A stretch of DNA of 64,000 nt from IMG/VR virus record IMGVR_UViG_3300045988_098456; one strand, 5' to 3'. The position numbers were made by a program, and so were the translations under genes. The stretch comes from a virus. Under the pieces are notes generated by a model, which did no database searches, had not been told where the DNA came from, and worked only from the letters and a program-made list of their open reading frames with translations. Positions 1 to 52,087 of the stretch are shown here, piece by piece. Within the stretch, counting starts at the first letter, position 1. Each line of letters starts with the position of its first letter.

Positions 1-48
1 AACAGCCTTCTAAGCTGTGGGTCTTGGGTTCGAACCCCAACGGAATCA
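1..48 (+). tRNA. tRNA-Arg(TCT), 3' portion only (5' part lies left of the window); probable phage attachment target
   Basis: Anticodon stem acagc/gctgt (2-6/14-18) with 7-nt loop cttctaa (TCT at positions 34-36). 5-nt variable loop. T-arm ttggg-TTCGAAC-cccaa (24-40). Acceptor 3' strand cggaatc plus discriminator a (41-48). Confidence 0.85.
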
Positions 49-2056: not shown

Positions 2057-3316
2057 ATGAGATTGATATATAAATTTTATGCAAGACATACTGAGCAGCT
2101 TGATGCTTTGTTCAAGGTTTCAAACAATCTTTGGAACCAAGCCTTGTATGTGTTCCGACAGCGGCTTGATAGCGATGGCACTTGGATTTGGTACAATGAT
2201 ATGGACAAGATTATGAAGCAAACATTGAACCTTAATGGTGAATGTAACTATCGCCTATTGAAAGCCCAGTGTTCGCAGCAGATTTTGCGTGTCTTAGACA
2301 AAAGTATCAAGGCATATTGCAAGTCTATCAAAGATTGGAAGAAGAATCCCGAAAAGTACAAAGCAATGCACCGAATGCCAAGTTATCGCAAACGTGGTGG
2401 CATGTTCAACTTGTTTTATACAAAGCAAAGCGCTGCCATCAAGGATGGGCAGATAAGGTTGTCTAAAAACTTGCTTATAGCTGTTCCTCAATGGGAAAAG
2501 TACGGTGGCGAGGTTTCTAAGTTTAACCAAATCCGATTGATACCAGAGCGAGACAAAGTTAAGGTAGAAATTGTATATGAAAAAGAATTGGCATTGTCTG
2601 ATGTCGACAAGAACAAGTATGCCTCTATTGATTTGGGAATTGATAATCTTGCAACGATGGTCACTTCTGATGGTTGCATCATTTGGAGCGGCAAACACTT
2701 GAAGTCGTACAATAGGTATTTCAATAAGGAACTTGCAAGGTTGCAATCCGTTAAGGATTTGCAGGGCATCAAGCGAAGCACGAAACGCATCATGGCTTTG
2801 TATGCAAAGCGAGATAAACATTTCGAGGATGTGTTTCACAAGGTGAGTCGTCAGATAGTTGATGTGCTTGTTGAAAAGAGAATAGGAACGTTGACTGTAG
2901 GCTACAATGTCGGTTGGAAACAGAGTACCGACATGGGCAAGCGGAACAATCAGAAGTTTGTCCAGCTGCCTTTTGCGAGGTTGACATCCTATCTTGGCTA
3001 CAAGTGTAAATTGGCTGGTATCGACTTCATCGAGCATGAAGAAAGTTATACAAGCAAGTGTGATGCTCTTGCCTTGGAGGAGGTTTGCAAGCATGAGGAT
3101 TATTTAGGAAAGCGTGTCAAGCGTGGCTTGTTTCGCTCATCCGTTGGTAAAATAATCAACGCAGACCAAAATGGAGCTTTGAACATATTGAGAAAAGTAG
3201 TCGGTGATTCCGAGTTCGTTCGGATAATCGGTAGTGGGCACTCGTTATGCCCAGTGCGACACTGCAATCCGTTCAACCGGAGTGTAAGAGGCATAGATAA
3301 TGTATTAAAGAAATAG
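2057..3316 (+). CDS. tnpB: TnpB-like RuvC nuclease (IS200/IS605-family accessory protein, OMEGA-type), solo
   Basis: 419 aa. The RuvC triad is in order: IDLGIDNLATM (D), EHEESYTSKCD (E), NADQNGALNILRK (D). The zinc-finger segment between E and D is degenerate (2 Cys only). No tnpA is nearby. Confidence 0.8.
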   Translation: MRLIYKFYARHTEQLDALFKVSNNLWNQALYVFRQRLDSDGTWIWYNDMDKIMKQTLNLNGECNYRLLKAQCSQQILRVLDKSIKAYCKSIKDWKKNPEKYKAMHRMPSYRKRGGMFNLFYTKQSAAIKDGQIRLSKNLLIAVPQWEKYGGEVSKFNQIRLIPERDKVKVEIVYEKELALSDVDKNKYASIDLGIDNLATMVTSDGCIIWSGKHLKSYNRYFNKELARLQSVKDLQGIKRSTKRIMALYAKRDKHFEDVFHKVSRQIVDVLVEKRIGTLTVGYNVGWKQSTDMGKRNNQKFVQLPFARLTSYLGYKCKLAGIDFIEHEESYTSKCDALALEEVCKHEDYLGKRVKRGLFRSSVGKIINADQNGALNILRKVVGDSEFVRIIGSGHSLCPVRHCNPFNRSVRGIDNVLKK

Positions 3317-15260: not shown

Positions 15261-15839
15261 ATGGCAAAACCGAAATTTGATTACAATGGCGATGCTTTCT
15301 ACGATGAGATAGAACAGCTTGCAAAGCAAGGTCAGAAGGATTCTGAAATTGCCTACGCCCTTGGTTTGAAGTTTGGGGTTGACCTAAATCCACAGGTCTT
15401 CAACCGAATGAAAAACGGAAAATACGAGAATTGGAATGAAGACGAAAATGTGGAAAGAGGAGAAAGGATAACTCAATCCCTCGTGCGTGGCAGAGAGTTT
15501 ATCAATGCAATCGTGCGTGGAAGATTCCTTAAATGCGCCCTTGGAGGTGTCAAGGTAAAAGGCAAGACAACCACCAAAAGACACATGGTTGTAGATGGAG
15601 TTATGACAGATGATATAGTAGTGGAAACTAGAGAAACCGAGCAGGAGACCCCACCTAACGTACAAGCTCTTTCTACTTGGTTATTCCATTACGATATGAC
15701 TTGGAGAGAGATACAGAGAGGTAAGAAGGATGAAGAGGAAAAGGGCATTCCTTTTGACCCTAAGAAAGGTATATCCGTCAACAAGTGGATAGAAAGAGAG
15801 ATTGAGCAGGAAGCAGAAGAGCAAGGGGAGGGTGAATAA
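15261..15839 (+). CDS. Terminase small subunit candidate
   Basis: The N-terminus is HTH-like (DSEIAYALGL). The stop overlaps the TerL start (ATAATG). Assigned mainly by position. Confidence 0.5.
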   Translation: MAKPKFDYNGDAFYDEIEQLAKQGQKDSEIAYALGLKFGVDLNPQVFNRMKNGKYENWNEDENVERGERITQSLVRGREFINAIVRGRFLKCALGGVKVKGKTTTKRHMVVDGVMTDDIVVETRETEQETPPNVQALSTWLFHYDMTWREIQRGKKDEEEKGIPFDPKKGISVNKWIEREIEQEAEEQGEGE

Positions 15840-18079
15840 TGGCAAAAACACATTCCGTTTATTATCCGTTATATAATGACAAGACGCATTTCATTTACCT
15901 TATAACGGGAAGCCGTGCGTCAGGAAAAAGTTTCTCAGCTTCTCAGTTTATCGAAAGACTTACTTTTGAATACAATGCAGAAAGAAAGATAGCGCATAAG
16001 ATTCTTTATACACGTTATACGATGGTAAGTGCCGCTATTTCCGTAATTCCAGAGGTTAAAGAGAAGATAGAGATTGATGGTACACAGGATTACTTTAAGA
16101 ATACTAAGACAGATATAGTCAACAAAATGACAGGAGCTGAAATCATGTTCCGTGGTATTCATACGGCTAGTGGTAATCAGACTGCGAAGTTAAAGTCAAT
16201 CCATGGTGTGACTACGTTTGTCGTTGATGAGGCTGAGGAATGGACGAGTGAGGAGGATTTTGAGCGCATCATGCTTTCAATCCGTCAGAAAGGCTTGCAC
16301 AACCGAGTAATAATCATTATGAACCCTTGTGATTCAAATCATTGGGTATATAAGCGTTTCATCGAAAAGACACATAAAGAGGTGTATTTTGATGGCGTTC
16401 CCGTCCAGATCAGTACAGACCCTAGAGTACTTCATATACATACGACCTATCTTGATAATATAAAGCATCTTTCACCTGAGTTCCTTAACGAGGTATTAGA
16501 GATGAAGGAGAATGAACCAGAGAAATATGCTCATATAATGATAGGTAGATGGTCTGATGTATCTGAGGGTGCAATATTCAAGCATGTAGGCATCGTTGAC
16601 AAGTTCCCTAGCAATGCAAGGAAAGTAGCCATCGGAGTAGACTGGGGATATTCGAAAGACTATACTGCTATTGTGAAGTGTGGTATCGTAGACAATCGCC
16701 TATACATAGAGGAACTTTGCTATAGAACGGAAATGTTGTCCAGTGATATTATAAAATTCTTGCGCCCTTATGCGGATGATGGCTTGTTTGTGTATGCGGA
16801 TAGTGCTGACCCTAGGCTTATAGATGAGGTAGCTCTTGGTGGAATAGTTATATATGGAGCACAAAAGGGTGCTGGTTCTATATTGGCTGGTATTGACAAG
16901 ATGCAGACATTCGAAATCTTTGCGACTAGACAATCAGTCCATTTACAGAGCGAGTTCCGCAAATATGTGTGGGCAAAGGACAAGGATGGCAATTATATCA
17001 ATGTTCCCGAAGACCATGATAATCATTGCTTTACCGCAGACACATTAATTTTAACGAATCAAGGATATAAGCAGATTAAGGATATAAACATAGGTGATAT
17101 TGTATATAATTCTGACGGATGGCATCGTGTAAGCAAGACCTTTGATAACGGCATTCAAGAGGTGTGGTCTGCCATTATCGAGCTTGGCGACAGAACAATA
17201 GAGATTAATTCAACACCAAGTCATAAATTCAAAACAAAGGAAGGATGGAAACAATTACAAGACTTGACAGAAAAGGACGTACTTTATATATTCAGAAATT
17301 CAACGGACGAGAATATGTTAAATACCCAAAAGAAATGTATTTTAAGAATGGAGCGACAACTACTTGGCTTCATCGAGCAGTGTGGGAATATTATAATGGA
17401 TGTATTCCGAAAGGCTATCATGTACATCACAAAAACGAAAATGTTTTTGACAATGAAATTGATAATCTTGAACTCCTTGAAGGGCATCAGCATCTTTGTA
17501 TGCACATGCAAGAGAAACTACAGGATGCAGAATATATTGAGAAATTGCAAAAGAACATGGATTACGCAAGAGGGTTTGCAAATAAATGGCATGGTTCAGA
17601 AGAAGGAAAGAGATGGCATAGGTTGCATGGAATTGAGGTCTCAAAAAATTTATCTACACAAGAATATAAGTGTCTGTTTTGTGGCAAAACATATCAAGCA
17701 AAGACTAGTGGCAACCATAAATTTTGTTCTAACGCTTGTAAAACAAGGTACAGATACCATTCTAAGGTGGATAATGAAGAAAGGACTTGTAAATATTGTG
17801 GGGCGAAATTCTCTGTTAACAAATACATCAAAAAAGAGTATTGCTCAAACAAATGTTATTGGGAAGATAGACGAGCAAAAAATAAAGAGAATAAAGATAG
17901 TTAGAAAATATAAAGATCATGTGTACAATATGGAGGTTGAAGGAGAGCATGAATATTTTGCTAACAACATATTGGTTTCAAATTGCATTGATGCTGCACG
18001 GTATTATATTCTTGCCGTATTGCTCGGTAAAGTGATGAAGCCAAGAAAAGCATCTAAATCAGACTTAGGAGTGTACTAA
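15839..18079 (+). CDS. terL: Terminase large subunit, interrupted by an intein (exteins 15839..17026 and 17984..18079)
   Basis: Walker A GSRASGKS, Walker B VVDEAEE. The nuclease motif is split by the insertion: EDHDNH|...|CIDAARYY. Confidence 0.9.
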   Translation: MAKTHSVYYPLYNDKTHFIYLITGSRASGKSFSASQFIERLTFEYNAERKIAHKILYTRYTMVSAAISVIPEVKEKIEIDGTQDYFKNTKTDIVNKMTGAEIMFRGIHTASGNQTAKLKSIHGVTTFVVDEAEEWTSEEDFERIMLSIRQKGLHNRVIIIMNPCDSNHWVYKRFIEKTHKEVYFDGVPVQISTDPRVLHIHTTYLDNIKHLSPEFLNEVLEMKENEPEKYAHIMIGRWSDVSEGAIFKHVGIVDKFPSNARKVAIGVDWGYSKDYTAIVKCGIVDNRLYIEELCYRTEMLSSDIIKFLRPYADDGLFVYADSADPRLIDEVALGGIVIYGAQKGAGSILAGIDKMQTFEIFATRQSVHLQSEFRKYVWAKDKDGNYINVPEDHDNHCFTADTLILTNQGYKQIKDINIGDIVYNSDGWHRVSKTFDNGIQEVWSAIIELGDRTIEINSTPSHKFKTKEGWKQLQDLTEKDVLYIFRNSTDENMLNTQKKCILRMERQLLGFIEQCGNIIMDVFRKAIMYITKTKMFLTMKLIILNSLKGISIFVCTCKRNYRMQNILRNCKRTWITQEGLQINGMVQKKERDGIGCMELRSQKIYLHKNISVCFVAKHIKQRLVATINFVLTLVKQGTDTILRWIMKKGLVNIVGRNSLLTNTSKKSIAQTNVIGKIDEQKIKRIKIVRKYKDHVYNMEVEGEHEYFANNILVSNCIDAARYYILAVLLGKVMKPRKASKSDLGVY
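17027..17983 (+). mobile_element. Intein (319 codons) in TerL
   Basis: Block A CFTADTLILT, block B TPSHKF, C-terminal VYNMEVEGEHEYFANNILVSN followed by Cys+1. Coordinates are in frame with terL. Confidence 0.8.
17245..17904 (+). CDS. HNH homing endonuclease encoded in an alternative frame inside the intein
   Basis: HRAVWEYYNGCIPKGYHVHHKNENVFDNEIDNLELLEGHQH, plus two CxxC..(Y/F)CSNxC zinc-ribbon repeats. Its frame differs from terL. Confidence 0.8.
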   Translation: METITRLDRKGRTLYIQKFNGREYVKYPKEMYFKNGATTTWLHRAVWEYYNGCIPKGYHVHHKNENVFDNEIDNLELLEGHQHLCMHMQEKLQDAEYIEKLQKNMDYARGFANKWHGSEEGKRWHRLHGIEVSKNLSTQEYKCLFCGKTYQAKTSGNHKFCSNACKTRYRYHSKVDNEERTCKYCGAKFSVNKYIKKEYCSNKCYWEDRRAKNKENKDS

Positions 18080-26012: not shown

Positions 26013-27281
26013 ATGAAAAATCTTGCAACAGTAGCAGCGGTATCATCAATGGTTAAGAATGATACTTTATTGATAGAGGTTGGTGGTTCGCTCAGACGTA
26101 TCAAGCTGTCCGACTTGGCTAAGTCTATTCAGACTAACCAACTTGACCTCTCGCTTATAGCGTGGGGTACTTACCTTAAAGAAACAAGTGATACGCAATG
26201 GGGAGTCTGCGGAAACCAGACGAAGTGGAATGAGTTCAAATCTTCGCTCGGTCGATACTTGCTCACTAACGATGGAAGAATGGCTAAATTATCTCGCAGC
26301 AACTCTTCTGTATTCGAGGATGGTACAACCGTTGATGAGAGCAAAGGTCATATTATGTTCCATACCCCTCATCGTCTTTACTATCTTGTGAAGTACGATG
26401 CGTCAGCAGGATGCAATATTCTGTGGGGTTCTACTTATCCTATCTCTGAGCATTATATCGACCATCCTACCTTTGGCGCATATATGGGTAGTATTGTTAG
26501 CAATAAGCTTGTAAGCCGTAGTGGACTTGGTGTATCGAATAATATATCAATCAGTGATTTCTTTACTTATGCCCATAATAACGGAAAGAATTTCGGTCTG
26601 CTCGACTATGAGACATTGAAGATTATTCCTATGCTCGTTTTGTGGGAAAGCGGAAACAGCAACTCACAGGCTAAGTTTGGTTGTGGTCCTACTGGTAGTA
26701 CCAATACATGGGATAAGGTTAATGGTCTTACAACGGGTGCGACAAAGAGCCTTGGAGATAACAATGGTAAAATCAGCTTGGCAGCATTGACAGGAAACGC
26801 TGACGCATGCTATGTGAACTTCTTCGGTATCGAGAACCCTTGGGGATGGTACTGGCATATGATACAAGGCATCTACTTCGGTAATAGCGGTAATAGCGGT
26901 CAGACTGGTTCAGAAGCATTTGTATACAAAGGCAACAGAATGCCTTCTGCTTCCGAGCTTACAGGTCATCCTGTCGGAGATTATCGCACATTCACACGAA
27001 ATATAAATAGTGGATGGGTATTGAGCCTTGTCCTTGGAGACTTCTTCGACATCATGCCAAAAAATGTTGGTGGTGATAATAGCGCAAACTACTATTGTGA
27101 CTACTCATGGGCAAGCAGCACTGGGCAGTTGCTCCTCTTTGGTGGTGACGCCTGGGATGCGCTTCGCTGCGGCTCGTTCTACGTCCATTCGAATTACGAC
27201 TTCGGCCATCGCGGTGCGAGCTACGGTGTGCGTCTCGCTTTTTACGGAAATCCGACATACGTAAACGGCGCAGACCTGTAG
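26013..27281 (+). CDS. DGR target: receptor-binding tail fibre protein with a C-type-lectin/FGE-like variable C-terminus
   Basis: FGIENPWGWYWHMIQG...NYYCDYSW...LLLFGGDAWDALRCGSFYVHSNYDFGHRGASYGVRLAFYG. VR occupies the last approx 38 codons. Confidence 0.8.
   Translation: MKNLATVAAVSSMVKNDTLLIEVGGSLRRIKLSDLAKSIQTNQLDLSLIAWGTYLKETSDTQWGVCGNQTKWNEFKSSLGRYLLTNDGRMAKLSRSNSSVFEDGTTVDESKGHIMFHTPHRLYYLVKYDASAGCNILWGSTYPISEHYIDHPTFGAYMGSIVSNKLVSRSGLGVSNNISISDFFTYAHNNGKNFGLLDYETLKIIPMLVLWESGNSNSQAKFGCGPTGSTNTWDKVNGLTTGATKSLGDNNGKISLAALTGNADACYVNFFGIENPWGWYWHMIQGIYFGNSGNSGQTGSEAFVYKGNRMPSASELTGHPVGDYRTFTRNINSGWVLSLVLGDFFDIMPKNVGGDNSANYYCDYSWASSTGQLLLFGGDAWDALRCGSFYVHSNYDFGHRGASYGVRLAFYGNPTYVNGADL
27129..27243 (+). 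repeat. DGR variable repeat (VR)
   Basis: 115-nt match to 27370..27484 with 14 mismatches, all opposite A in the TR. Confidence 0.9.
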
Positions 27282-27290
27282 GGTCTGCGC
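27268..27290 (+). promoter_or_regulatory. GC hairpin directly after VR (DGR homing-associated hairpin type)
   Basis: gcgcagacc/ggtctgcgc with loop tgtag. The stop codon lies in the loop. A second hairpin gtggagc/gctccac is at 27299..27314. Confidence 0.6.
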
Positions 27291-27369
27291 TACCCGATGT
27301 GGAGCTTGCTCCACCGACGCAAAAATGGTGATAAGAAAAAATATAAAATAAAAGGTGGCGAGAGACATT

Positions 27370-27484
27370 TTGCTCCTCTTTGGTGGTAACGCCAGGAATG
27401 CGCTTAACTGCGGCTCGTTCTACGTCAATTCGAATAACGACTTCGGCAATCGCAATACGAACTACGGTGTGCGTCTCACTTATT
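27370..27484 (+). repeat. DGR template repeat (TR)
   Basis: Non-coding copy of VR. It is rich in AAC/AAT triplets in the VR reading frame. Confidence 0.9.
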
Positions 27485-27709
27485 TATAATCGCTGAATCA
27501 ATAATCTGTCGTGTATGGATATATGAAGAAGTGAGTCTCTCAAACCTTGACGTGGGCTTTTAGCCTAGTCAGAAAATAACAGCGGAAAGGCTCTCTGTAT
27601 TCGCTGAATGGAGAGCAAGCGTGGTGAAGTAATCGGCTCAGTTGTACGAGCAGAACAAAGTCACGGGCAAAGCGGCAAAAAAGCAATAGGCTTTAAATTA
27701 TAAAACACA

Positions 27710-29191
27710 ATGACAGCAAAGGTAAAGAATCTGATGAACGAACTCGTAAAGAGGGAAACATTGGAGCAAGGCGGTGATGATGCCTACAATGCGTTAGATG
27801 ATAAGAATACGTGGTTTGCAAGGAGATATATCCGAGATAAGGACAATATTATCGACTGCATACAGAATATGCTCATCCTCGGCATTTATCCTAAGAAGGA
27901 ATATAAAGAGGTTGATATAGTATCAGAGAATAAGGCAAGAAAGATATGCCCTATGCACTTCGACCCTTGGAACGTTCTATTCCATGCCATAAAGATAGTG
28001 CTAGAACCTATAGTAGAGCGAGTGCTCATATATGATTCAAGTGCTGGCAGAAAAGGCAAAGGTCAGGTATTCGGAGCATTGAGAACCCAACGGGCTATCA
28101 GAAGGCATCCGAAATGGGCTTATTATGGGAAAGGAGACCTCAGAAAGTACTATCTGACAATACCTCATCCTGTTCTGCTTATGATACTCAGACGATATGT
28201 AGACGATGATTTGTTCATCGAGCTTATAGATAAGACTATGTTGGACTATTCTGTAGATATAGAACCTCTGATGCTTGAAGAATATGAGCGCAAGAAGAAG
28301 TACTGCATTTGGGCAGACAAAAGTGAAATAAAGTATCTCGGGTGTAAGCGTGGTGTAACGCTCGGTAATCCTATCGGTCAGATGTTAGGTAATCTTGCTT
28401 TAAGTCTTGTAGACTATGCTATGGTTCATATCGAGCATGCTAAAGGTTATCATCGGCATTGTGACGATATTACCTTCTTCGCTGAAACAAAGGAAGAAGC
28501 TGTTCGGTTGCTTGGAAGATTGGACTACTGGTGTAACCAATATGGTCTCTGTCTGAAGGCGAGCGGTCATGTAGCAGAACTGCATAACGAAGAGACAGGT
28601 GTAAAAGGAAGATGCTTAGACTTTGTAGGTTATGTATATTCTCGCAAGAACATGAGGATGCGCAGACGTACAAAGGTTAAGGCTGCAAAGGCTTTCGGTA
28701 GAGTTAAGAGCCGTAAAAGGCGGCAGGAACTTATCGGAGCTTATTGGGGAATAGCAAGATGGGGAAAGTGTAAGCATCTTTGGAAGAAGATTGTCGGAGA
28801 TTACCCAGAAAATTATAAACAAGAATTTAAAAGGAAAAAGAACATGAGTTTCAAGGATATAGGAATCGTATCACCGAAATACTCGGTCGATAAAAACGGA
28901 AAACGTATATTTTCCGTACAGGAATACAATCAAGCTCTTCTCTGTCAGAATCACACCATCATCAACATATTAGACTTTGAAGATGATGTAGAGGTTAATG
29001 GCAAGGGCGGTCGATGCTGGGTTCTGTACGAAATGAAAGATAGCCCAGGAACAGAGTATAAGTTCTGCACTTCATCAAAACTCATAAGGCAGAAACTTAT
29101 TGAAGTAAGGGAGAAGAATCTTCTGCCAGTCAATGACACTTTCCTGTTCAGAGTAGACAAAGGTGGCAGATATACTTATGATTTAGATTAA
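27710..29191 (+). CDS. DGR-type reverse transcriptase with a C-terminal extension
   Basis: FHAIKIVLEPIVERV, SSAGRKGKGQVFGA, GDLRKYYLTIPH, GVTLGNPIGQMLGNLAL, YHRHCDDITFFA. About 130 additional C-terminal residues have no recognised motif. Confidence 0.85.
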   Translation: MTAKVKNLMNELVKRETLEQGGDDAYNALDDKNTWFARRYIRDKDNIIDCIQNMLILGIYPKKEYKEVDIVSENKARKICPMHFDPWNVLFHAIKIVLEPIVERVLIYDSSAGRKGKGQVFGALRTQRAIRRHPKWAYYGKGDLRKYYLTIPHPVLLMILRRYVDDDLFIELIDKTMLDYSVDIEPLMLEEYERKKKYCIWADKSEIKYLGCKRGVTLGNPIGQMLGNLALSLVDYAMVHIEHAKGYHRHCDDITFFAETKEEAVRLLGRLDYWCNQYGLCLKASGHVAELHNEETGVKGRCLDFVGYVYSRKNMRMRRRTKVKAAKAFGRVKSRKRRQELIGAYWGIARWGKCKHLWKKIVGDYPENYKQEFKRKKNMSFKDIGIVSPKYSVDKNGKRIFSVQEYNQALLCQNHTIINILDFEDDVEVNGKGGRCWVLYEMKDSPGTEYKFCTSSKLIRQKLIEVREKNLLPVNDTFLFRVDKGGRYTYDLD

Positions 29192-45865: not shown

Positions 45866-45878
45866 GGTGAGACACACC
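45866..45878 (+). promoter_or_regulatory. Leader motif GGTGAGACACACC, copy 5
   Basis: Exact 13-mer, 16 nt before the ATG at 45895. Confidence 0.6.
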
Positions 45879-45894
45879 ATAAAAACTGGTGATA

Positions 45895-46227
45895 ATGACA
45901 AAGAAAGAAATTTTAAAACAATGGCTTGATGAGCCGAAAGTGAAATATTGTGGCAGTTCAAATTTTACGTTAGGTTATGGTGATGGCTGGGATTGGGTTA
46001 AAGATACTCTACGACCAGCTATCACGAAGAATGCGATGTTCCTCAGATTCTTGGAGCATGGCTTCCGTGAGATAGAAGAGTTTCTGAAATCCAAGTCCGG
46101 AAAACCTAGCGAGGATGATTGCACATTATATTCCGTTGGGTACAAAGATGGAGTCAAGGATGCTATGATAGCAATAAAGAATAGATTTGAAAATTTAAAA
46201 TTCAAGTTTCAGAAGCCATTAGGTTAG
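45895..46227 (+). CDS. Hypothetical protein
   Basis: Start trimmed to MTKKEIL. Confidence 0.45.
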   Translation: MTKKEILKQWLDEPKVKYCGSSNFTLGYGDGWDWVKDTLRPAITKNAMFLRFLEHGFREIEEFLKSKSGKPSEDDCTLYSVGYKDGVKDAMIAIKNRFENLKFKFQKPLG

Positions 46228-46231
46228 AACG

Positions 46232-46462
46232 ATTATCCATTCAATCGTCCGGAGCGGATTACCCTCAGCCTCGAATGGAATTGGGAGCTACGTTAGGGAT
46301 GAATGTATAGGCACGTCAGGATGTCCGTCCAAGTTCTGTCCTCTGCGGTTCGTGGTTAAAAGTGGCGAAAGCTGCGGTGCTGCGGACAAGAAACCACCCC
46401 ATAACATTGGCGATGGGCGCACAACCCCACTTTGGTGGGAGATTTATTTATTAATTTAAATT
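46232..46462 (+). ncRNA. Candidate IscB omega RNA (HEARO-type), boundaries approximate
   Basis: A G+C-rich, ORF-free, helix-dense 230 nt lies directly upstream of iscB (e.g. acgatt/aatcgt, ctgcgg...ccgcag-type pairings, cccac-tttg-gtggg at the 3' end). AT-rich DNA lies on both sides. Confidence 0.6.
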
Positions 46463-46470
46463 GATTTTTT

Positions 46471-47718
46471 ATGATTTACGTAAGGAGCAAGGATGGTAAG
46501 GCATTGATGCCAAGCGAGCGTGGAGGGAGGATAGGCTATCTTCTTCGCCACGGCAAGGCTCATGTAGTCAGCCGTGTTCCGTTTGTCGTTCAGTTGGATT
46601 ATGAGAGCACCACCTATACGCAGGAAGTGAGCCTTGGCATTGATGCTGGTTCAAAGCATATTGGCGTTTCAGCTAGTTCCGAGAAGAAGGAGCTGCTTGC
46701 AGCGCAGGTTGAGTTAAGAATTGATGTTGTGAACTTGCTATCTACTCGCAGGGAGTTGAGACGAACAAGGCGAAACCGCAAGACACGTTATCGCAAGTCT
46801 CGTTTTGACAATCGAAAGCGAAAGGATGGTTGGCTAGCACCCAGTGTTGAACAAAAGATTGAGAGTCACTTGAAGGTTATCCGCTTGGTTCATAAGTTAC
46901 TTCCAATTACGAAGACCACAATCGAGGTTGCTCAGTTTGATGCTCAGAAAATCAAGAATCCAGACATCAATGGTGAGGAGTATCAGCAGGGTGAACAAAT
47001 GGGATTTTGGAACGTGAGGGAGTACGTCTTGGCTAGGGATGGGAACAAGTGTGTTCATTGCAAGGGTAAGAGTAAAGACCCAATCTTGAATGTTCACCAC
47101 TTGGAGAGCCGGAAGACAGGTGGCAATTCCCCTAGTAATCTCGTTACTCTATGTGAGACTTGTCACAAGGCTTACCATCGTGGGGAGTTCGAGTTGAAAA
47201 TCAAGCGTAGAAATTCCTTGCGTGATGCAGCCGTTATGAATATTATGCGTTGGGCGGTCTATGAGCGAGCGAAGGAAGAATTTGAGAACGTTCACTTGAC
47301 TTATGGTTATGTAACCAAGCATACTCGCATAGAGAATGGTATTGCCAAGACCCATGCAGCCGATGCTTTCTGTATTGCTAAGAATATTAACGCAATGAGG
47401 TTGAGTACTTTCTTTATGTGCCGTTGTGTTCCTAGCCATACGAGAAGGTTGCACGTTGCCAACCCTAAGAAGGGCGGCATCCGCAGAAGCACGATAGCCT
47501 CTCATAAGATAGGTAAGTCCCGCTTTCAGCGTTTCGACATGGTGCGTTGGAAGGGTAAGGAATGCTTTATCTTTGGCAGCACGCATGGTAATGTTGTTTT
47601 GCGTAAAATTAATGGCGTAAAGGTGCATGAAACGCAAGCTGTGAGTGCCAAAACGATAAAGTTTTTAAAAAGAATTAGAAATAACATTTTAGTGGAAGTA
47701 AGGGCTTCCGAAAATTGA
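46471..47718 (+). CDS. iscB: IscB RNA-guided nuclease (OMEGA system; RuvC plus HNH)
   Basis: PLMP motif (KALMPS), RuvC-I LGIDAGSKHIGVS, Arg-rich bridge helix RRELRRTRRNRKTRYRKSRF, RuvC-II IEVAQFD, HNH CVHCKG...NVHHLESR...LVTLCETCHKAYH, RuvC-III THAADAF. Confidence 0.85.
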   Translation: MIYVRSKDGKALMPSERGGRIGYLLRHGKAHVVSRVPFVVQLDYESTTYTQEVSLGIDAGSKHIGVSASSEKKELLAAQVELRIDVVNLLSTRRELRRTRRNRKTRYRKSRFDNRKRKDGWLAPSVEQKIESHLKVIRLVHKLLPITKTTIEVAQFDAQKIKNPDINGEEYQQGEQMGFWNVREYVLARDGNKCVHCKGKSKDPILNVHHLESRKTGGNSPSNLVTLCETCHKAYHRGEFELKIKRRNSLRDAAVMNIMRWAVYERAKEEFENVHLTYGYVTKHTRIENGIAKTHAADAFCIAKNINAMRLSTFFMCRCVPSHTRRLHVANPKKGGIRRSTIASHKIGKSRFQRFDMVRWKGKECFIFGSTHGNVVLRKINGVKVHETQAVSAKTIKFLKRIRNNILVEVRASEN

Positions 47719-50119: not shown

Positions 50120-50820
50120 AGTATATGGGTAGTAAGGCTAGAATCGTGCATGAAATATTGCCGATTATGCTGGACAAAGAGCATGATACGTTTGTAGATG
50201 CTTTCTGTGGCGGCTGTAGCGTTATAGAGAATGTTCCGAACACGTATCGAAGGATTGCCAACGATAAGAATAGGTATCTTATCGAAATGTGGAAGTATCT
50301 TCAGAATGATGGGTTTGTCTTCAACCATATTAGTAAGACGTTGTATAACTTTGCACGAGACTGCTATCACGGAAAGAATAATTTCTTCACAGAGGCTGGT
50401 GTCGGACTAATTGGCTTTATGGCGAGCTTTAATGGTCGCTTCTTTGATGGTGGCTATAGCGGACATAATGTTGTCGGCAAGAACGGAAAGGCAAGAGATT
50501 ACATAAGGGAACAGATAGAAAACACAATGCGTGATGTGCCTCTCATCAAAGGTGTTGAGTTCTATAGTGGTAGCTATGATGAACTTGTGATACCGGATAA
50601 TAGTATAGTATATTGCGATTTGCCTTACAAAGCTACGAAAAAGTATGATGTATCAAAGAATTTCGATTACGAAAGATTCTATATATGGTGCATGGAAATG
50701 GCTAGAAGAGGTCATAAGGTATTTATCAGCGAATACCAGATGCCACAGGAGGTCAGATGTGTTTGGGAAAAGGAAGTAACCAATTCCCTTAACCCGAATA
50801 TTACAAACCAATTCCCTTAA
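50116..50820 (+). CDS. dam: DNA N6-adenine methyltransferase (Dam/D12 class), C-terminus altered by a 28-bp duplication
   Basis: MKYMGSKARIV, FVDAFCGGCSV, YCDLPY. Confidence 0.85.
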   Translation: MKYMGSKARIVHEILPIMLDKEHDTFVDAFCGGCSVIENVPNTYRRIANDKNRYLIEMWKYLQNDGFVFNHISKTLYNFARDCYHGKNNFFTEAGVGLIGFMASFNGRFFDGGYSGHNVVGKNGKARDYIREQIENTMRDVPLIKGVEFYSGSYDELVIPDNSIVYCDLPYKATKKYDVSKNFDYERFYIWCMEMARRGHKVFISEYQMPQEVRCVWEKEVTNSLNPNITNQFP

Positions 50821-50835
50821 CCCGAATATTACAAA
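50780..50835 (+). repeat. Perfect 28-bp tandem duplication (ccaattcccttaacccgaatattacaaa x2)
   Basis: 50780..50807 is identical to 50808..50835, checked base by base. Confidence 0.95.
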
Positions 50836-50876
50836 GAGACCTATTGAAAGGTTGTTTACTATTGATTAGGATTAGG

Positions 50877-51035
50877 ATGAAAGAAACTTATTGTTTAGAA
50901 GATACGCTTTACAATACAAAGCGCTACTTCACTATGGAGAATGGAGTGGTGTCAGGAACAGAACTTGCACAAGAATACTTTAACGTGTTCCTTGATCTTG
51001 CAAGTCGGCTTGGTTATAATGTAGTGAAATTATGA
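50877..51035 (+). CDS. Hypothetical small protein
   Basis: Start trimmed to MKETYCLED. Confidence 0.35.
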   Translation: MKETYCLEDTLYNTKRYFTMENGVVSGTELAQEYFNVFLDLASRLGYNVVKL

Positions 51036-51193
51036 CTAGGCGAGTACACAAGGATTGTCCGTTCACGGCAGAAGAATTGGATGAGTTCAGAGCAGCTTTG
51101 TATAATGTGAATACATCTTTTCACTGCTGTAATGCAGCTCCGGTAGACTGGTCGGCAGGATGGCAGCGGAATGATATAAGAAAGACGAGGTAG
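51032..51193 (+). CDS. Hypothetical 53-aa protein (below the ORF-track cutoff)
   Basis: Hand-translated as MTRRVHKDCPFTAEELDEF...; ATGA overlap. Confidence 0.3.
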   Translation: MTRRVHKDCPFTAEELDEFRAALYNVNTSFHCCNAAPVDWSAGWQRNDIRKTR

Positions 51194-51194
51194 G

Positions 51195-51630
51195 ATTTCC
51201 ATAATCGACCAAATACCCACGTGTCAAAGCCGTGTGATGCCCAGCGTGGGGGCGGGATTGTAAACTTAGGAGTCACACGGCTTTATTTTGAAGTTTCATA
51301 ACTACAAATAGCCTATCGCTAATGGTTGTTCCCTTGGGCAGGGAGATAGTTAATACCGCATCGTAAGATGTGAACACTTAAAATTTGCCGACAACCATTG
51401 GCAAATGCCTATTAGTCAGCGGCAGAAACCCTTGGGCAAGGTTGGGAATGGTGCGCAATCTTCAACTTCGCATCTGTCGCTGACAAACGGATGAGTGGCA
51501 TTGGCAACTGAAAGCAATGCGACCCTCGCAAACTTGGAGCGGATTTTCTGATTAAACATTCCGTGTACTGAGTCACTGGGGAGGAATTGGCCCAACAAGG
51601 GTTTAAATCCCTTGTCATCCACTAATTTTA
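51195..51630 (+). ncRNA. Unassigned structured non-coding region (approx 430 nt); strand not established
   Basis: There is no plus-strand ORF and the region is G+C-richer than its flanks. Many long complementary segments are present (12-bp 51226/51273, 9-bp 51321/51391, 7-bp 51383/51400, 11-bp 51415/51474, 6-bp 51498/51515, 6-bp 51596/51609, 6-bp 51489/51615). Confidence 0.45.
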
Positions 51631-51642
51631 AAAGGTATAATT

Positions 51643-51870
51643 ATGAACGAGTATTGTAAGAATTTGATTTCAAATGGAGTTCCTAGCTGGATAGTAGAGG
51701 AGGCTTATAAATTTACAATTGAGCCTTTGAAACCAACAGAAGGCTTGGTAGGAATTGATAAGGAAAATAGTGAGCTATATAGAAATGTCATTATCGCAGC
51801 CTACATTGAGGGTGCTAGTGCTACATTGGAAAAAGTGAAAAGATATTATGGCGATGAGGAACATAGTTAG
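51643..51870 (+). CDS. Hypothetical protein
   Basis: 75-aa ORF. Confidence 0.45.
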   Translation: MNEYCKNLISNGVPSWIVEEAYKFTIEPLKPTEGLVGIDKENSELYRNVIIAAYIEGASATLEKVKRYYGDEEHS

Positions 51871-52087
51871 ACAATGGAACGAGGCAACAGAAGGATATTC
51901 GTACCGCTTCAAAGGTGGAGATATTTTCCTCCGGTTGGTTAAGGCTGAAGGTAGTTATGAATTGCGTAACCCTATAGGTTATGGTGTTCAAGTAGTCATA
52001 TGCAAAGACTTGGATGAAGCAGATGCAAAAGCCAAGGAAGTGCTAGAAGTGTTTTTTGAAGACAAAGTTAACATAAAAGTTATTTGA
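51848..52087 (+). CDS. Hypothetical protein
   Basis: 79-aa ORF. Confidence 0.45.
   Translation: MAMRNIVRQWNEATEGYSYRFKGGDIFLRLVKAEGSYELRNPIGYGVQVVICKDLDEADAKAKEVLEVFFEDKVNIKVI

What the first reader, a model, noticed from the sequence alone, without database searches (positions are those of the whole stretch)
51195..51630. Unassigned, roughly 430-nt, helix-dense non-coding region among the early genes
No plus-strand ORF spans this stretch, and it is clearly G+C-richer than its surroundings. It contains many long complementary pairs:
- aaagccgtgtga/tcacacggcttt (51226/51273);
- aatggttgt/acaaccatt (51321/51391);
- atttgcc/ggcaaat (51383/51400), whose loop contains the previous helix's 3' strand, implying a pseudoknot or alternative fold;
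- gtcagcggcag/ctgtcgctgac (51415/51474);
- gcattg/caatgc (51498/51515);
- caaggg-tttaaat-cccttg (51596..51614);
- a closing ggatga/tcatcc pair (51489/51615).
The region shares the 10-mer ggagcggatt with the putative IscB omega RNA (46250 and 51536), which may be coincidence. Candidate identities are an orphan omega-like RNA, a large ornate phage RNA class (ROOL/GOLLD-like in concept), or an origin or packaging structure.
Basis: seen in the sequence. Interest (0 to 1): 0.65.

Follow-up and report, generated by a model that had tools for sequence, protein, structure and literature searches.

The report
Phage RNA cluster ending in tRNA mimic
The flagged stretch is a genuine non-coding structured-RNA region of a gut Bacteroidota prophage, but it is a chain of separate RNA modules rather than one large RNA, and the last module is a previously uncatalogued RNA shaped like a transfer RNA with an over-long "anticodon" arm.

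Summary
Window 51195-51642 has no conserved ORF, is G+C-richer than its flanks, and folds better than shuffles on the + strand (z = -3.15).

It is not one ~430-nt ornate RNA, not an omega RNA, and not ROOL/GOLLD-like. Relatives show four modules that occur independently:
- M1, an H-type pseudoknot (51216-51284).
- M2, a three-way junction (51318-51402).
- H5, a lineage-specific hairpin (51415-51484).
- TL, a tRNA-like element (51489-51621).

TL has a 7-bp acceptor stem, a 5-bp T stem with a 7-nt UUYRRNY-type loop, a D-like arm, discriminator A, and no encoded CCA. It lacks an anticodon loop. Instead it has a 4-5 bp stem, a conserved internal loop (GCAA//CNCUGGG), 11 more base pairs, and an apical loop with invariant AUUAAAC.

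Six divergent lineages give compensatory changes in 19 of 33 pairs. A D-loop/T-loop tertiary pair also covaries. Rfam 15 and default ARAGORN find nothing.

In roughly half of the close relatives, a mobile TnpB element sits at the M2 border and about 160 nt, including most of TL, is missing.

The function was not tested. My best guess is a tRNA mimic matured by host RNase P and CCA addition.

The parts
51216..51284 (+). M1: H-type pseudoknot. Stem s2 is 51226-37 / 51273-84. Stem s1 pairs 51216-21 (cccacg) with 51245-50 (cgtggg), which lies in the s2 loop. The loop sequence GGGGCGGGAUUGUAAACUU is conserved.
   Evidence: Both stems are kept in divergent relatives with different sequences. For s2, compare aaagccgtgtga/tcacacggcttt with ggggaggcgg/ctgccttccc in L302. 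For s1, compare cccacg/cgtggg, cctgcg/cgtggg and cacgc/gcgtg. M1 is replaced by unrelated sequence in L106 and is duplicated in tandem in L296, L297 and L299.
51318..51402 (+). M2: three-way junction. The closing stem H2 is 51318-28 / 51392-402. Hairpin Ha is 51329-32 / 51342-45, with the conserved loop CUUGGGCA. Hairpin Hb is 51358-62 / 51367-71, with a GUAA tetraloop. The junction strand ACACUUAAAAUUUG is conserved.
   Evidence: The MFE z-score is -4.05. H2, Ha and Hb all keep pairing through double changes in L296, L297, L299, L302 and L291. In L291-L293 the 3' strand of H2 is followed directly by a run of 8-9 T, and no TL follows. Among close relatives, stem changes are G-U compatible.
51415..51484 (+). 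H5: a lineage-specific long hairpin. It has a 12-bp closing stem, 51415-26 / 51473-84, and contains a second CCUU-GGGC-AAGG hairpin like Ha. It may be a partial paralogue of M2.
   Evidence: The z-score is -3.11. It is present in all window-type close relatives but absent in L296, L299, L302, L300 and L305. Its inner structure is not resolved.
51489..51621 (+). TL: a tRNA-like element, 133 nt.
- Acceptor stem: 51489-95 / 51614-20.
- U8 G9: 51496-97.
- D-like arm: 51498-503 / 51515-20, loop 51504-14.
- 'Anticodon' stem: 51524-27 / 51581-84.
- Internal loop: GCAA (51528-31) // CACUGGG (51574-80).
- Extension helices: E1 51532-37 / 51568-73 and E2 51539-43 / 51560-64.
- Apical loop: 51544-59, containing AUUAAAC.
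- Variable region: 51585-96.
- T arm: 51597-601 / 51609-13, with 7-nt loop UUUAAAU at 51602-08.
- Discriminator: A51621, followed by CUA with no encoded CCA.
   Evidence: Manual alignment of six lineages shows all six helices kept with different sequences. On the covariance-model alignment A7, 19 of 33 pairs have changes on both sides, 96.3% of cells are paired, 0 of 500 shuffles reach this, and slid controls give 4 or fewer. RNAfold of the window sequence alone returns the cloverleaf. With the intron option, ARAGORN calls the L300 copy a tRNA with exactly these borders.
51622..51642 (+). A short A/U-rich spacer between the TL discriminator and the ATG of the next ORF (51643).
   Evidence: TL ends 15-29 nt before a start codon in all six lineages, although the downstream gene differs.

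Best explanation
The region is a string of independent structured-RNA modules. They are transcribed on the + strand as part of the rightward accessory operon (methylases, small ORFs) of a temperate Bacteroidota phage.

The order is M1 (pseudoknot), M2 (three-way junction), H5 (extra hairpin in this lineage only), and then TL, a tRNA mimic.

Shown:
- TL has the acceptor/T-arm minihelix (7 + 5 bp), a T loop, and a D-like arm whose loop covaries with T-loop position 56. This gives an L-shape with an elbow.
- It has a discriminator A and no encoded CCA. The host tRNA-Arg gene fragment at the prophage end also lacks an encoded CCA.
- The anticodon loop is replaced by a long, conserved arm.

Inferred mechanism:
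- Host RNase P cuts 5' of G51489. This releases the upstream M1-M2(-H5) RNA with a defined 3' end.
- The 3' end is trimmed after A51621 and CCA is added.
- The result is a stable, tRNA-shaped RNA of about 136 nt. It cannot decode. It uses the tRNA body as a natural scaffold to display the conserved arm (GCAA//CUGGG loop and AUUAAAC apical loop) to a partner that is still unknown.

TL is destroyed by an IS-linked deletion in about half of otherwise intact relatives. Its role is therefore accessory, for example host manipulation or counter-defence, and not essential.
For: - Structure and strand: + strand z = -3.15. Among 36 close relatives, 99.4% of cells are paired and 21 pairs vary on one side only, almost all as G-U-compatible changes. 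There is one CG<->GC swap at 51596/51614.
- Modularity.
- TL covariation in the stems:
  - Acceptor: GGAUGAG/GUCAUCC, GGAUGGG/CCCAUCC, GCGGAGG/CCUCCGC, GGACGUG/CACGUCC.
  - D stem: GCAUUG/CAAUGC, GCAUGG/CCAUGC, GCCACG/CGUGGC.
  - AC stem: CCUC/GAGG, CCAC/GUGG, CUUAC/GUGAG, ACUUC/GAAGU.
  - T stem: five variants.
- Formal count: 19 of 33 pairs with double changes, 0 of 500 shuffles.
- Tertiary covariation: the D-loop has GG where the T loop is UUCG.. (L296, L299, L300, L305), and GA where it is UUUA.. (window lineage, L302).
- The single-sequence MFE returns the cloverleaf.
- ARAGORN with the intron option delimits L300 TL exactly.
- The host tRNA-Arg fragment also lacks CCA.
- Dispensability: 22 of 50 distinct relatives carry the TnpB element with TL truncated.
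Against: - No expression data of any kind, so processing by RNase P, CCA addition and stability are inferred from shape alone.
- Only six lineages are known, all from one phage group in metagenomes.
- The covariance-model alignment is fitted to the structure.
- Position 7-66 of the acceptor stem is a G-G mismatch in the window itself.
- The D-like stem has 6 bp instead of 4. L305 has CA instead of U8 G9, and G instead of A58.
- Helix E1 has tandem purine-purine mismatches in three lineages.
- No partner or target for the conserved arm was found. The one complement of the apical loop elsewhere in the window is at chance level.
- TL always lies 15-29 nt before a start codon. This fits a purely cis-acting role equally well.
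Confidence: 0.5

Rival explanations
1. TL is a cis-acting punctuation or leader element. The tRNA shape serves only to recruit RNase P and 3' processing enzymes, so that the polycistronic transcript is cut here. This uncouples the stability and translation of the downstream ORF (short A/U-rich leader) from the upstream RNA. The released tRNA-like piece is a by-product.
For: TL ends 15-29 nt before a start codon in all six lineages, whatever the downstream gene is. It sits inside a same-strand gene array with no Bacteroidetes-type promoter motif (TAnnTTTG) found in 50800-51642. Known precedents, from general knowledge, are mitochondrial tRNA punctuation and MALAT1/mascRNA.
Against: A mere processing signal would not need the conserved internal loop (GCAA//CNCUGGG), the invariant AUUAAAC apical loop, or an 11-bp arm extension kept by covariation. 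Short intergenic spacers are the norm in phage genomes, so the spacing is weak evidence.
Confidence: 0.25
2. TL is a genuine decoding tRNA gene interrupted by an intron-like insertion in the anticodon loop.
For: With its intron option, ARAGORN calls L300 TL 'tRNA-Gly(acc) with a 50-nt intron'. At relaxed thresholds it calls all copies.
Against: The predicted anticodons differ between homologues (Gly, Gln, Ser, Thr, Tyr). The residues flanking the insertion (GCAA ... CNCUGGG) give no 7-nt loop with U33. No self-splicing intron signature is present and there is no Rfam group I hit. The insertion is a conserved, covarying helix rather than a removable sequence. Default ARAGORN and the Rfam tRNA model find nothing.
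Confidence: 0.03
3. The region is an orphan guide RNA (omega RNA or reRNA) left by, or working in trans with, the IscB or TnpB nucleases of this phage.
For: The phage carries IscB (46471-47718) and a TnpB (2057-3316). Relatives have a TnpB element inserted in this very locus. A 10-mer is shared with the IscB omega RNA.
Against: There is no HEARO hit at E <= 10, whereas the real omega RNA scores 62.7 bits. There is no significant similarity to the TnpB element or to the omega-RNA region. Other copies of the TnpB element define its ends and exclude M1, M2 and TL. The fold is a tRNA cloverleaf, not an omega-RNA scaffold.
Confidence: 0.02
4. The region is a DNA-level element (replication origin, packaging site, recombination site), or a decayed protein-coding gene.
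For: It has dense inverted repeats, sits in a mosaic region, and is a hotspot for IS insertion and cassette exchange.
Against: Stem changes are G-U wobble compatible on the + strand only, which DNA cruciforms would not tolerate. No iterons or tandem repeats are present. The terminase is 35 kb away and the attachment site lies at the tRNA-Arg end of the window. No reading frame is conserved.
Confidence: 0.03

Closest known systems
Canonical tRNA / pre-tRNA
   Same: A 7-bp acceptor stem stacks on a 5-bp T stem. The 7-nt T loop has U54, U55, Y56, R57 and A58. There is a U8, a D-like arm with G18-G19 (or G-A covarying with U56), a discriminator A73, and no encoded CCA, as in the host's own tRNA-Arg gene.
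   Different: There is no anticodon loop. The anticodon stem continues through a conserved internal loop into 11 more base pairs and a 16-23 nt loop. The D stem has 6 bp. The Rfam tRNA model and default ARAGORN do not detect it. No consistent anticodon can be assigned.
Bacterial Y RNAs (YrlA / Yrn1), Ro60-associated tRNA mimics (Chen et al. 2014, PMC4201824)
   Same: A non-coding RNA that mimics the tRNA T arm, D arm and acceptor stem. Some are phage-encoded. M. smegmatis YrlA, which has a 7-bp acceptor stem, is cut by RNase P and receives CCA.
   Different: YrlA is permuted. Its ends lie in the Ro-binding helix at the anticodon position, and its acceptor stem is closed by a loop. Here the ends are at the acceptor stem and the long arm is closed. 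No Rfam Y-RNA family hits. No Ro60/TROVE gene was seen among the ORFs scanned. The GNCGAAN0-1G Ro-binding motif was not looked for.
tmRNA tRNA-like domain
   Same: Acceptor stem plus T arm, with a large insertion between the two halves.
   Different: There is no G3-U70 alanine identity pair (A3-U70 or G3-C70 instead), no tag reading frame and no pseudoknot ring. A real D stem is present. ARAGORN's tmRNA search is negative.
mascRNA / MALAT1 and viral 3' tRNA-like structures; engineered 'tRNA scaffold' RNAs (general knowledge)
   Same: A tRNA-shaped module inside a longer transcript. It can recruit RNase P to define ends, and a tRNA body can stabilise and present a foreign arm in place of the anticodon stem-loop.
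   Different: Those examples are eukaryotic, from RNA viruses, or artificial. No sequence relationship exists. Processing here is untested.
HEARO / IscB omega RNA (RF02033); ROOL and GOLLD
   Same: Structured RNAs of several hundred nucleotides found in prophages. HEARO is present 5 kb upstream in the same window.
   Different: There is no covariance-model match, no adjacent nuclease, and a modular rather than unitary architecture.

Membership tests
IscB omega RNA (HEARO, RF02033) | Match to the HEARO covariance model | tested here: not met
   No hit at E <= 10 in 50800-51900 or 51480-51632. The genuine omega RNA at 46247-46425 scores 62.7 bits, E = 6e-12.
IscB omega RNA (HEARO, RF02033) | Lies immediately upstream of an iscB gene (RRXRR + HNH) | tested here: not met
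   The downstream ORFs are 75, 79 and 91 aa with no Pfam hit.
TnpB omega RNA / reRNA | Overlaps the 3' end of tnpB and the right end of the IS200/IS605 element | tested here: not met
   There is no tnpB here. In relatives, the TnpB element's ends (..TTAATTATAAAAC to ..GGGAGTATGTCA) exclude M1, M2 and TL. Similarity is not significant.
ROOL / GOLLD large ornate RNAs | Match to the Rfam models; one conserved large architecture | tested here: not met
   No Rfam hit. The modules occur independently in relatives.
tRNA (decoding) | 7-bp acceptor stem + 5-bp T stem + 7-nt T loop | tested here: met
   The window itself has a G-G mismatch at 7-66.
tRNA (decoding) | D arm whose loop pairs with the T loop (G19-C56) | tested here: met
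   The D-loop has GG with C56 in four lineages and GA with U56 in two. The stem is 6 bp instead of 4.
tRNA (decoding) | 5-bp anticodon stem closed by a 7-nt loop with a consistent anticodon | tested here: not met
   The stem continues into a long conserved arm. ARAGORN's anticodon calls disagree between homologues.
tRNA (decoding) | Detected by the tRNA covariance model / ARAGORN | tested here: not met
   It is detected only with the intron option.
tmRNA | G3-U70, a tag ORF with resume codon, pseudoknots | tested here: not met
   A3-U70 or G3-C70. ARAGORN's tmRNA mode is negative. The only Rfam match is a trivial T-arm match to beta_tmRNA at 5.7 bits.
Bacterial Y RNA (YrlA) | Ends in a Ro-binding helix; tRNA-like domain with a closed acceptor stem-loop; Ro60 (TROVE) gene within about 4 kb | tested here: not met
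   The topology is the opposite one (open acceptor stem, closed long arm). No Rfam hit. The neighbouring ORFs have no TROVE domain. The description of YrlA is taken from PMC4201824.
RNase P substrate / CCA-adding enzyme substrate | Cleaved 5' of G+1; non-templated CCA added after the discriminator | not testable with these tools
   Inferred only from the 7 + 5 bp minihelix, the elbow and discriminator A.

The most novel reading that the evidence does not exclude
TL founds a new family of phage-encoded tRNA mimics. The host's own tRNA maturation machinery (RNase P, 3' trimming, CCA addition, perhaps Psi55/m5U54 modification) turns a piece of phage mRNA into a stable L-shaped RNA. Its anticodon limb has been rebuilt into an effector arm. 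In effect it is a natural 'tRNA scaffold', used in trans as a decoy or regulator, for example against tRNA-directed host defences or tRNA-binding factors. The neighbouring M1-M2 RNA is a second new structured-RNA class released by the same cut.
Probability: 0.35. Interest if true: 0.8.

Novelty: new variant of a known kind. Interest (0 to 1): 0.62.

Why it matters
tRNA mimicry by non-coding RNAs is known from tmRNA, Y RNAs, mascRNA and the 3' ends of plant viruses. A DNA-phage RNA that keeps the whole acceptor/T/D body but swaps the anticodon loop for a conserved long arm is not in Rfam 15. I also did not find it in the paper library.

If it is processed as predicted, it would show that phages of the dominant human-gut phylum use the host tRNA pathway to make stable effector RNAs. 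It would also give a natural counterpart to the engineered tRNA scaffold.

The locus offers a natural knock-out series: relatives with and without TL, M2 and H5, and relatives with a TnpB insertion. That makes function directly testable. Two further structured modules (M1, M2) are also uncatalogued.

Tried and rejected
- **Rfam.** Scanned at gathering thresholds on the whole window. Scanned at E <= 10 on 50800-51900, on 51480-51632, on L300 TL, on L291 M1-M2 and on the whole L296 element. Nothing relevant appeared. The weak L31-leader, DUF2815, beta_tmRNA and plastid 3'UTR hits are single hairpins or the T arm.
- **IStron idea (group I intron + TnpB).** Rejected. Other copies of the TnpB element share only the element itself, not M1, M2 or TL, and no group I model hits.
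- **Middle 168 nt as a miniature IS or an orphan omega RNA.** No similarity to the TnpB element or to the IscB omega RNA. No empty site was found, so how the ~160 nt was lost next to the IS remains unexplained.
- **Searches for more lineages.**
  - IMG/VR pattern scans for the L296-type hairpin and for a relaxed TL pattern: 0 hits.
  - Genome and metagenome scans: one new locus each (L305, L306).
  - INPHARED blastn: only MT835610.
- **Cultured relative.** Bacteroides phage Versailles has no TL in its first 50 kb.
- **Target search.** The complement of the apical loop occurs in the window only at chance level.
- **RNAalifold details.** Its helix gggcagg/tttgcc and the long-range gcct/aggt pair on close relatives are not supported by divergent homologues. 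A local hairpin with loop CUUGGGCA fits better.
- **Literature.** Five searches found no description of this RNA.

Full report
**1. The observation**

The stretch lies between a 53-aa ORF (51032-51193) and a 75-aa ORF (51643-51870). Both are on the + strand, like all their neighbours.

It has no + strand ORF above 32 aa. Its G+C is 0.445-0.505, against about 0.37 around it. As + strand RNA it folds to -138.4 kcal/mol, against -122.1 +/- 5.2 for shuffles (z = -3.15). The reverse strand gives z = -2.0.

**2. Context**

The window is a prophage. Features identified:
- A tRNA-Arg(UCU) 3' fragment at 1-48, followed by an integrase at 292-1491.
- A terminase with an intein, and a portal protein.
- A DGR (see section 9).
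- An IscB (46471-47718) with a HEARO-like omega RNA at 46247-46425.

The portal's nearest cultured relatives are phages of Bacteroides, Porphyromonas, Riemerella and Cellulophaga, at 24-31% identity. The host is therefore a member of the Bacteroidota.

The finding sits in a rightward array of methylases, HTH proteins and small ORFs.

**3. Known families**

Rfam 15 gives nothing for the region, either at gathering thresholds or at E <= 10. In the same window the real omega RNA scores 62.7 bits against HEARO.

The shared 10-mer ggagcggatt is a chance match. Local alignments of the middle 168 nt to the omega-RNA region and to the TnpB element of relatives score within about 2 sd of shuffles.

ARAGORN finds no tRNA or tmRNA.

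**4. Close relatives**

One GenBank record (MT835610) and more than 100 IMG/VR contigs carry the region at 92-96% identity. In 36 distinct sequences, the RNAalifold structure is paired in 99.4% of cells. Twenty-one pairs vary on one side only, nearly always as G-C<->G-U or A-U<->G-U. One pair swaps C-G<->G-C, at 51596/51614. Such wobble-preserving changes work only for + strand RNA. They argue against a DNA-level element or a minus-strand gene.

The minus-strand 68-aa ORFs are not conserved in length or frame.

Three structural variants are informative:
- MT835610 and others lack the methylase cassette 50125-51212, so the element starts at about 51213.
- L106 replaces 51213-51295 with unrelated sequence.
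- 22 of 50 distinct sequences keep 51195-51403 and 51567-51642 but have a 1.28-kb insert in place of 51404-51566. The insert encodes a 378-aa TnpB (OrfB_IS605 + Cas12f1-like TNB).

Other copies of that TnpB element, at unrelated sites, share only the element. They define its ends: it inserts after ..GCAC, and its right end is ..GGGAGTATGTCA. The element is therefore an invader, not part of the RNA, and the IStron idea fails. Its insertion coincides with the loss of about 160 nt. I could not explain how that loss happened.

**5. Divergent relatives**

I fetched the contigs that encode 50-75%-identical homologues of the upstream 274-aa protein and the downstream 75-aa protein. I also ran one genome scan and one metagenome pattern scan. 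Together these gave six lineages. They show that the region is modular:

| Loci | Content |
|---|---|
| L296, L299 | Two M1 copies, M2 and TL, but no H5 |
| L302 / L306 | M1, M2 and TL |
| L305 | An M1-like pseudoknot and TL, no M2 |
| L300 | TL alone, starting one base after a methylase stop codon |
| L291-L293 | M1 + M2 alone, with the closing stem of M2 followed by 8-9 T |
| L297, L298 | The TnpB-disrupted form of the L296 type |

**6. The tRNA-like module (51489-51621)**

Aligned by hand, the six lineages share the following features:
- **Acceptor stem.** A 7-bp terminal stem whose sequence changes completely while pairing is kept: GGAUGAG/CUCAUCC, GGAUGGG/CCCAUCC, GCGGAGG/CCUCCGC, GGACGUG/CACGUCC.
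- **Linker.** Two nucleotides, UG in four of the six lineages (UA in L299, CA in L305).
- **D-like arm.** A 6-bp stem with an 11-14 nt loop.
- **'Anticodon' stem.** A 4-5 bp stem: CCUC/GAGG, CCAC/GUGG, CUUAC/GUGAG, ACUUC/GAAGU, CUUC/GAAG.
- **Long arm.** A conserved internal loop (GCAA // CNCUGGG), then helices of 6 and 5 bp, then a 16-23 nt loop with invariant AUUAAAC.
- **Variable region.** It contains GCCAAC.
- **T arm.** A 5-bp stem with a 7-nt loop: UUCGAAU, UUCGACC, UUCGGGU, or UUUAAAU/UUUGAAU.
- **3' end.** The 3' acceptor strand follows directly, then an A, then C plus variable sequence. No CCA is encoded.

A covariance model built from these sequences (R1) finds exactly one copy in the window and full-length copies in all six lineages. 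On its alignment, 19 of 33 pairs have changes on both sides and 96.3% of cells pair. No shuffle of 500 reaches these values, and sliding the partners by 1-3 columns gives 4 or fewer such pairs. That alignment is fitted to the model, but the hand alignment says the same.

The D-loop carries GG where the T loop has C at position 56, and GA where it has U. This is the tRNA elbow pair G19-C56 covarying.

RNAfold of the window sequence alone returns the cloverleaf.

With its intron option, ARAGORN calls the L300 copy a tRNA with exactly these borders. However, the 'anticodons' it proposes differ from lineage to lineage. TL is therefore tRNA-shaped but not a decoding tRNA.

It is also not a tmRNA. 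It has no G3-U70 pair, no tag ORF and no pseudoknots.

It differs from YrlA Y RNAs, whose ends and closed loop are the other way round and which accompany Ro60.

The host tRNA-Arg fragment at the prophage border also lacks an encoded CCA (..GGAAUCA|CUA). The missing CCA in TL therefore matches host practice.

**7. The other modules**

- **M1** is a hairpin (51226-37 / 51273-84) whose loop pairs with the sequence just upstream (51216-21 with 51245-50). Both stems persist with different sequences in L302 and L291.
- **M2** is a three-way junction. It has a closing stem (51318-28 / 51392-402), a small hairpin with the conserved loop CUUGGGCA, and a second hairpin. The second hairpin has a GUAA tetraloop here and other loops elsewhere. 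Double changes occur in all three stems.
- **H5** is confined to the window lineage and repeats the CCUU-GGGC-AAGG hairpin.

Neither M1-M2 nor H5 matches Rfam.

**8. How it most likely works**

*Shown:*
- The fold, the strand and the modularity.
- That TL can be lost: about half of the close relatives have it truncated by the IS-linked deletion.

*Inferred:*
[quoted passage not shown] M. smegmatis YrlA, a tRNA-like ncRNA with a 7-bp acceptor stem, is cleaved and receives CCA in vivo (PMC4201824).
- I therefore expect cleavage 5' of G51489, trimming after A51621 and CCA addition. This would yield a stable L-shaped RNA that displays the conserved long arm, plus an upstream M1-M2-H5 RNA with a defined 3' end.

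What the arm binds is unknown.

The main rival is a purely cis-acting processing signal for the downstream ORF, since TL always ends 15-29 nt before a start codon. The conserved loops of the arm argue for more than that.

**9. Seen in passing**

The DGR has its variable repeat (VR) at 27129-27243, its template repeat (TR) at 27370-27484 and its reverse transcriptase (RT) at 27710-29191. All VR/TR mismatches fall at adenines of the TR. The other items are listed separately.

**10. Verdict**

It is not an omega RNA or one giant RNA. It is a cluster of uncatalogued modules ending in a new kind of phage tRNA mimic. Its function remains to be tested.

Noticed in passing
window 26013-29191: A diversity-generating retroelement. 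A 115-nt variable repeat lies at the 3' end of ORF 26013-27281 (27129-27243), and the template repeat lies at 27370-27484. All mismatches fall at template adenines. It is followed by a 493-aa reverse transcriptase (27710-29191, Pfam RVT_1).
   Followed up: yes
L076 1650-2923 (relatives); junctions correspond to window 51403/51404 and 51566/51567: A mobile TnpB-only IS200/IS605-type element occupies this locus in about half of the close relatives and has further copies elsewhere in the same phages. It inserts after ..GCAC. Here the insertion comes with an unexplained loss of ~160 nt that removes H5 and most of the tRNA-like module. The sequence right after its right end, where a TnpB guide would be read, is part of the tRNA-like arm.
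   Followed up: partly
window 46247-46425: The omega RNA upstream of IscB (46471-47718) matches HEARO at only 62.7 bits, below the family's gathering score of 83. A standard Rfam annotation would miss it.
   Followed up: partly
window 45867-45895; L076 1727-1755; L294 7181-7205: A recurrent leader motif, GGTGAG(A/G)CACACC...AAAAACTG, lies downstream of Bacteroidetes-type promoters. Similar sequence forms the left flank of several TnpB element copies, which insert right after ..AAACTGCAC.
   Followed up: no
window 50783-50838: A tandem duplication of about 29 nt (CCAATTCCCTTAACCCGAATATTACAAA) lies at the 3' end of the Dam-type methylase ORF. It changes the protein's C-terminus to 234 aa, against 241 aa in relatives such as L076.
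   Followed up: no
window 50125-51212: The cassette of methylase plus two small ORFs is absent in MT835610 and other relatives. The junctions share the microhomology AAATAC.
   Followed up: partly
window 15839-18079 and 2057-3316: The large terminase subunit carries an intein (Intein_splicing / Hint_2). A second TnpB-like ORF (419 aa) lies next to the integrase.
   Followed up: no
window 1-48: The prophage abuts the 3' part of a tRNA-Arg(UCU) gene that has no encoded CCA (..GGAATCA then CTA). The tRNA-like module has the same 3' context (A then CTA).
   Followed up: partly
L305 (CAVGEN010000103.1): The only hit in the species-representative genome collection is a 16-kb contig binned as Waltera intestinalis, a Firmicute. 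Given the Bacteroidota-type phage, this looks like a mis-binned phage contig.
   Followed up: no
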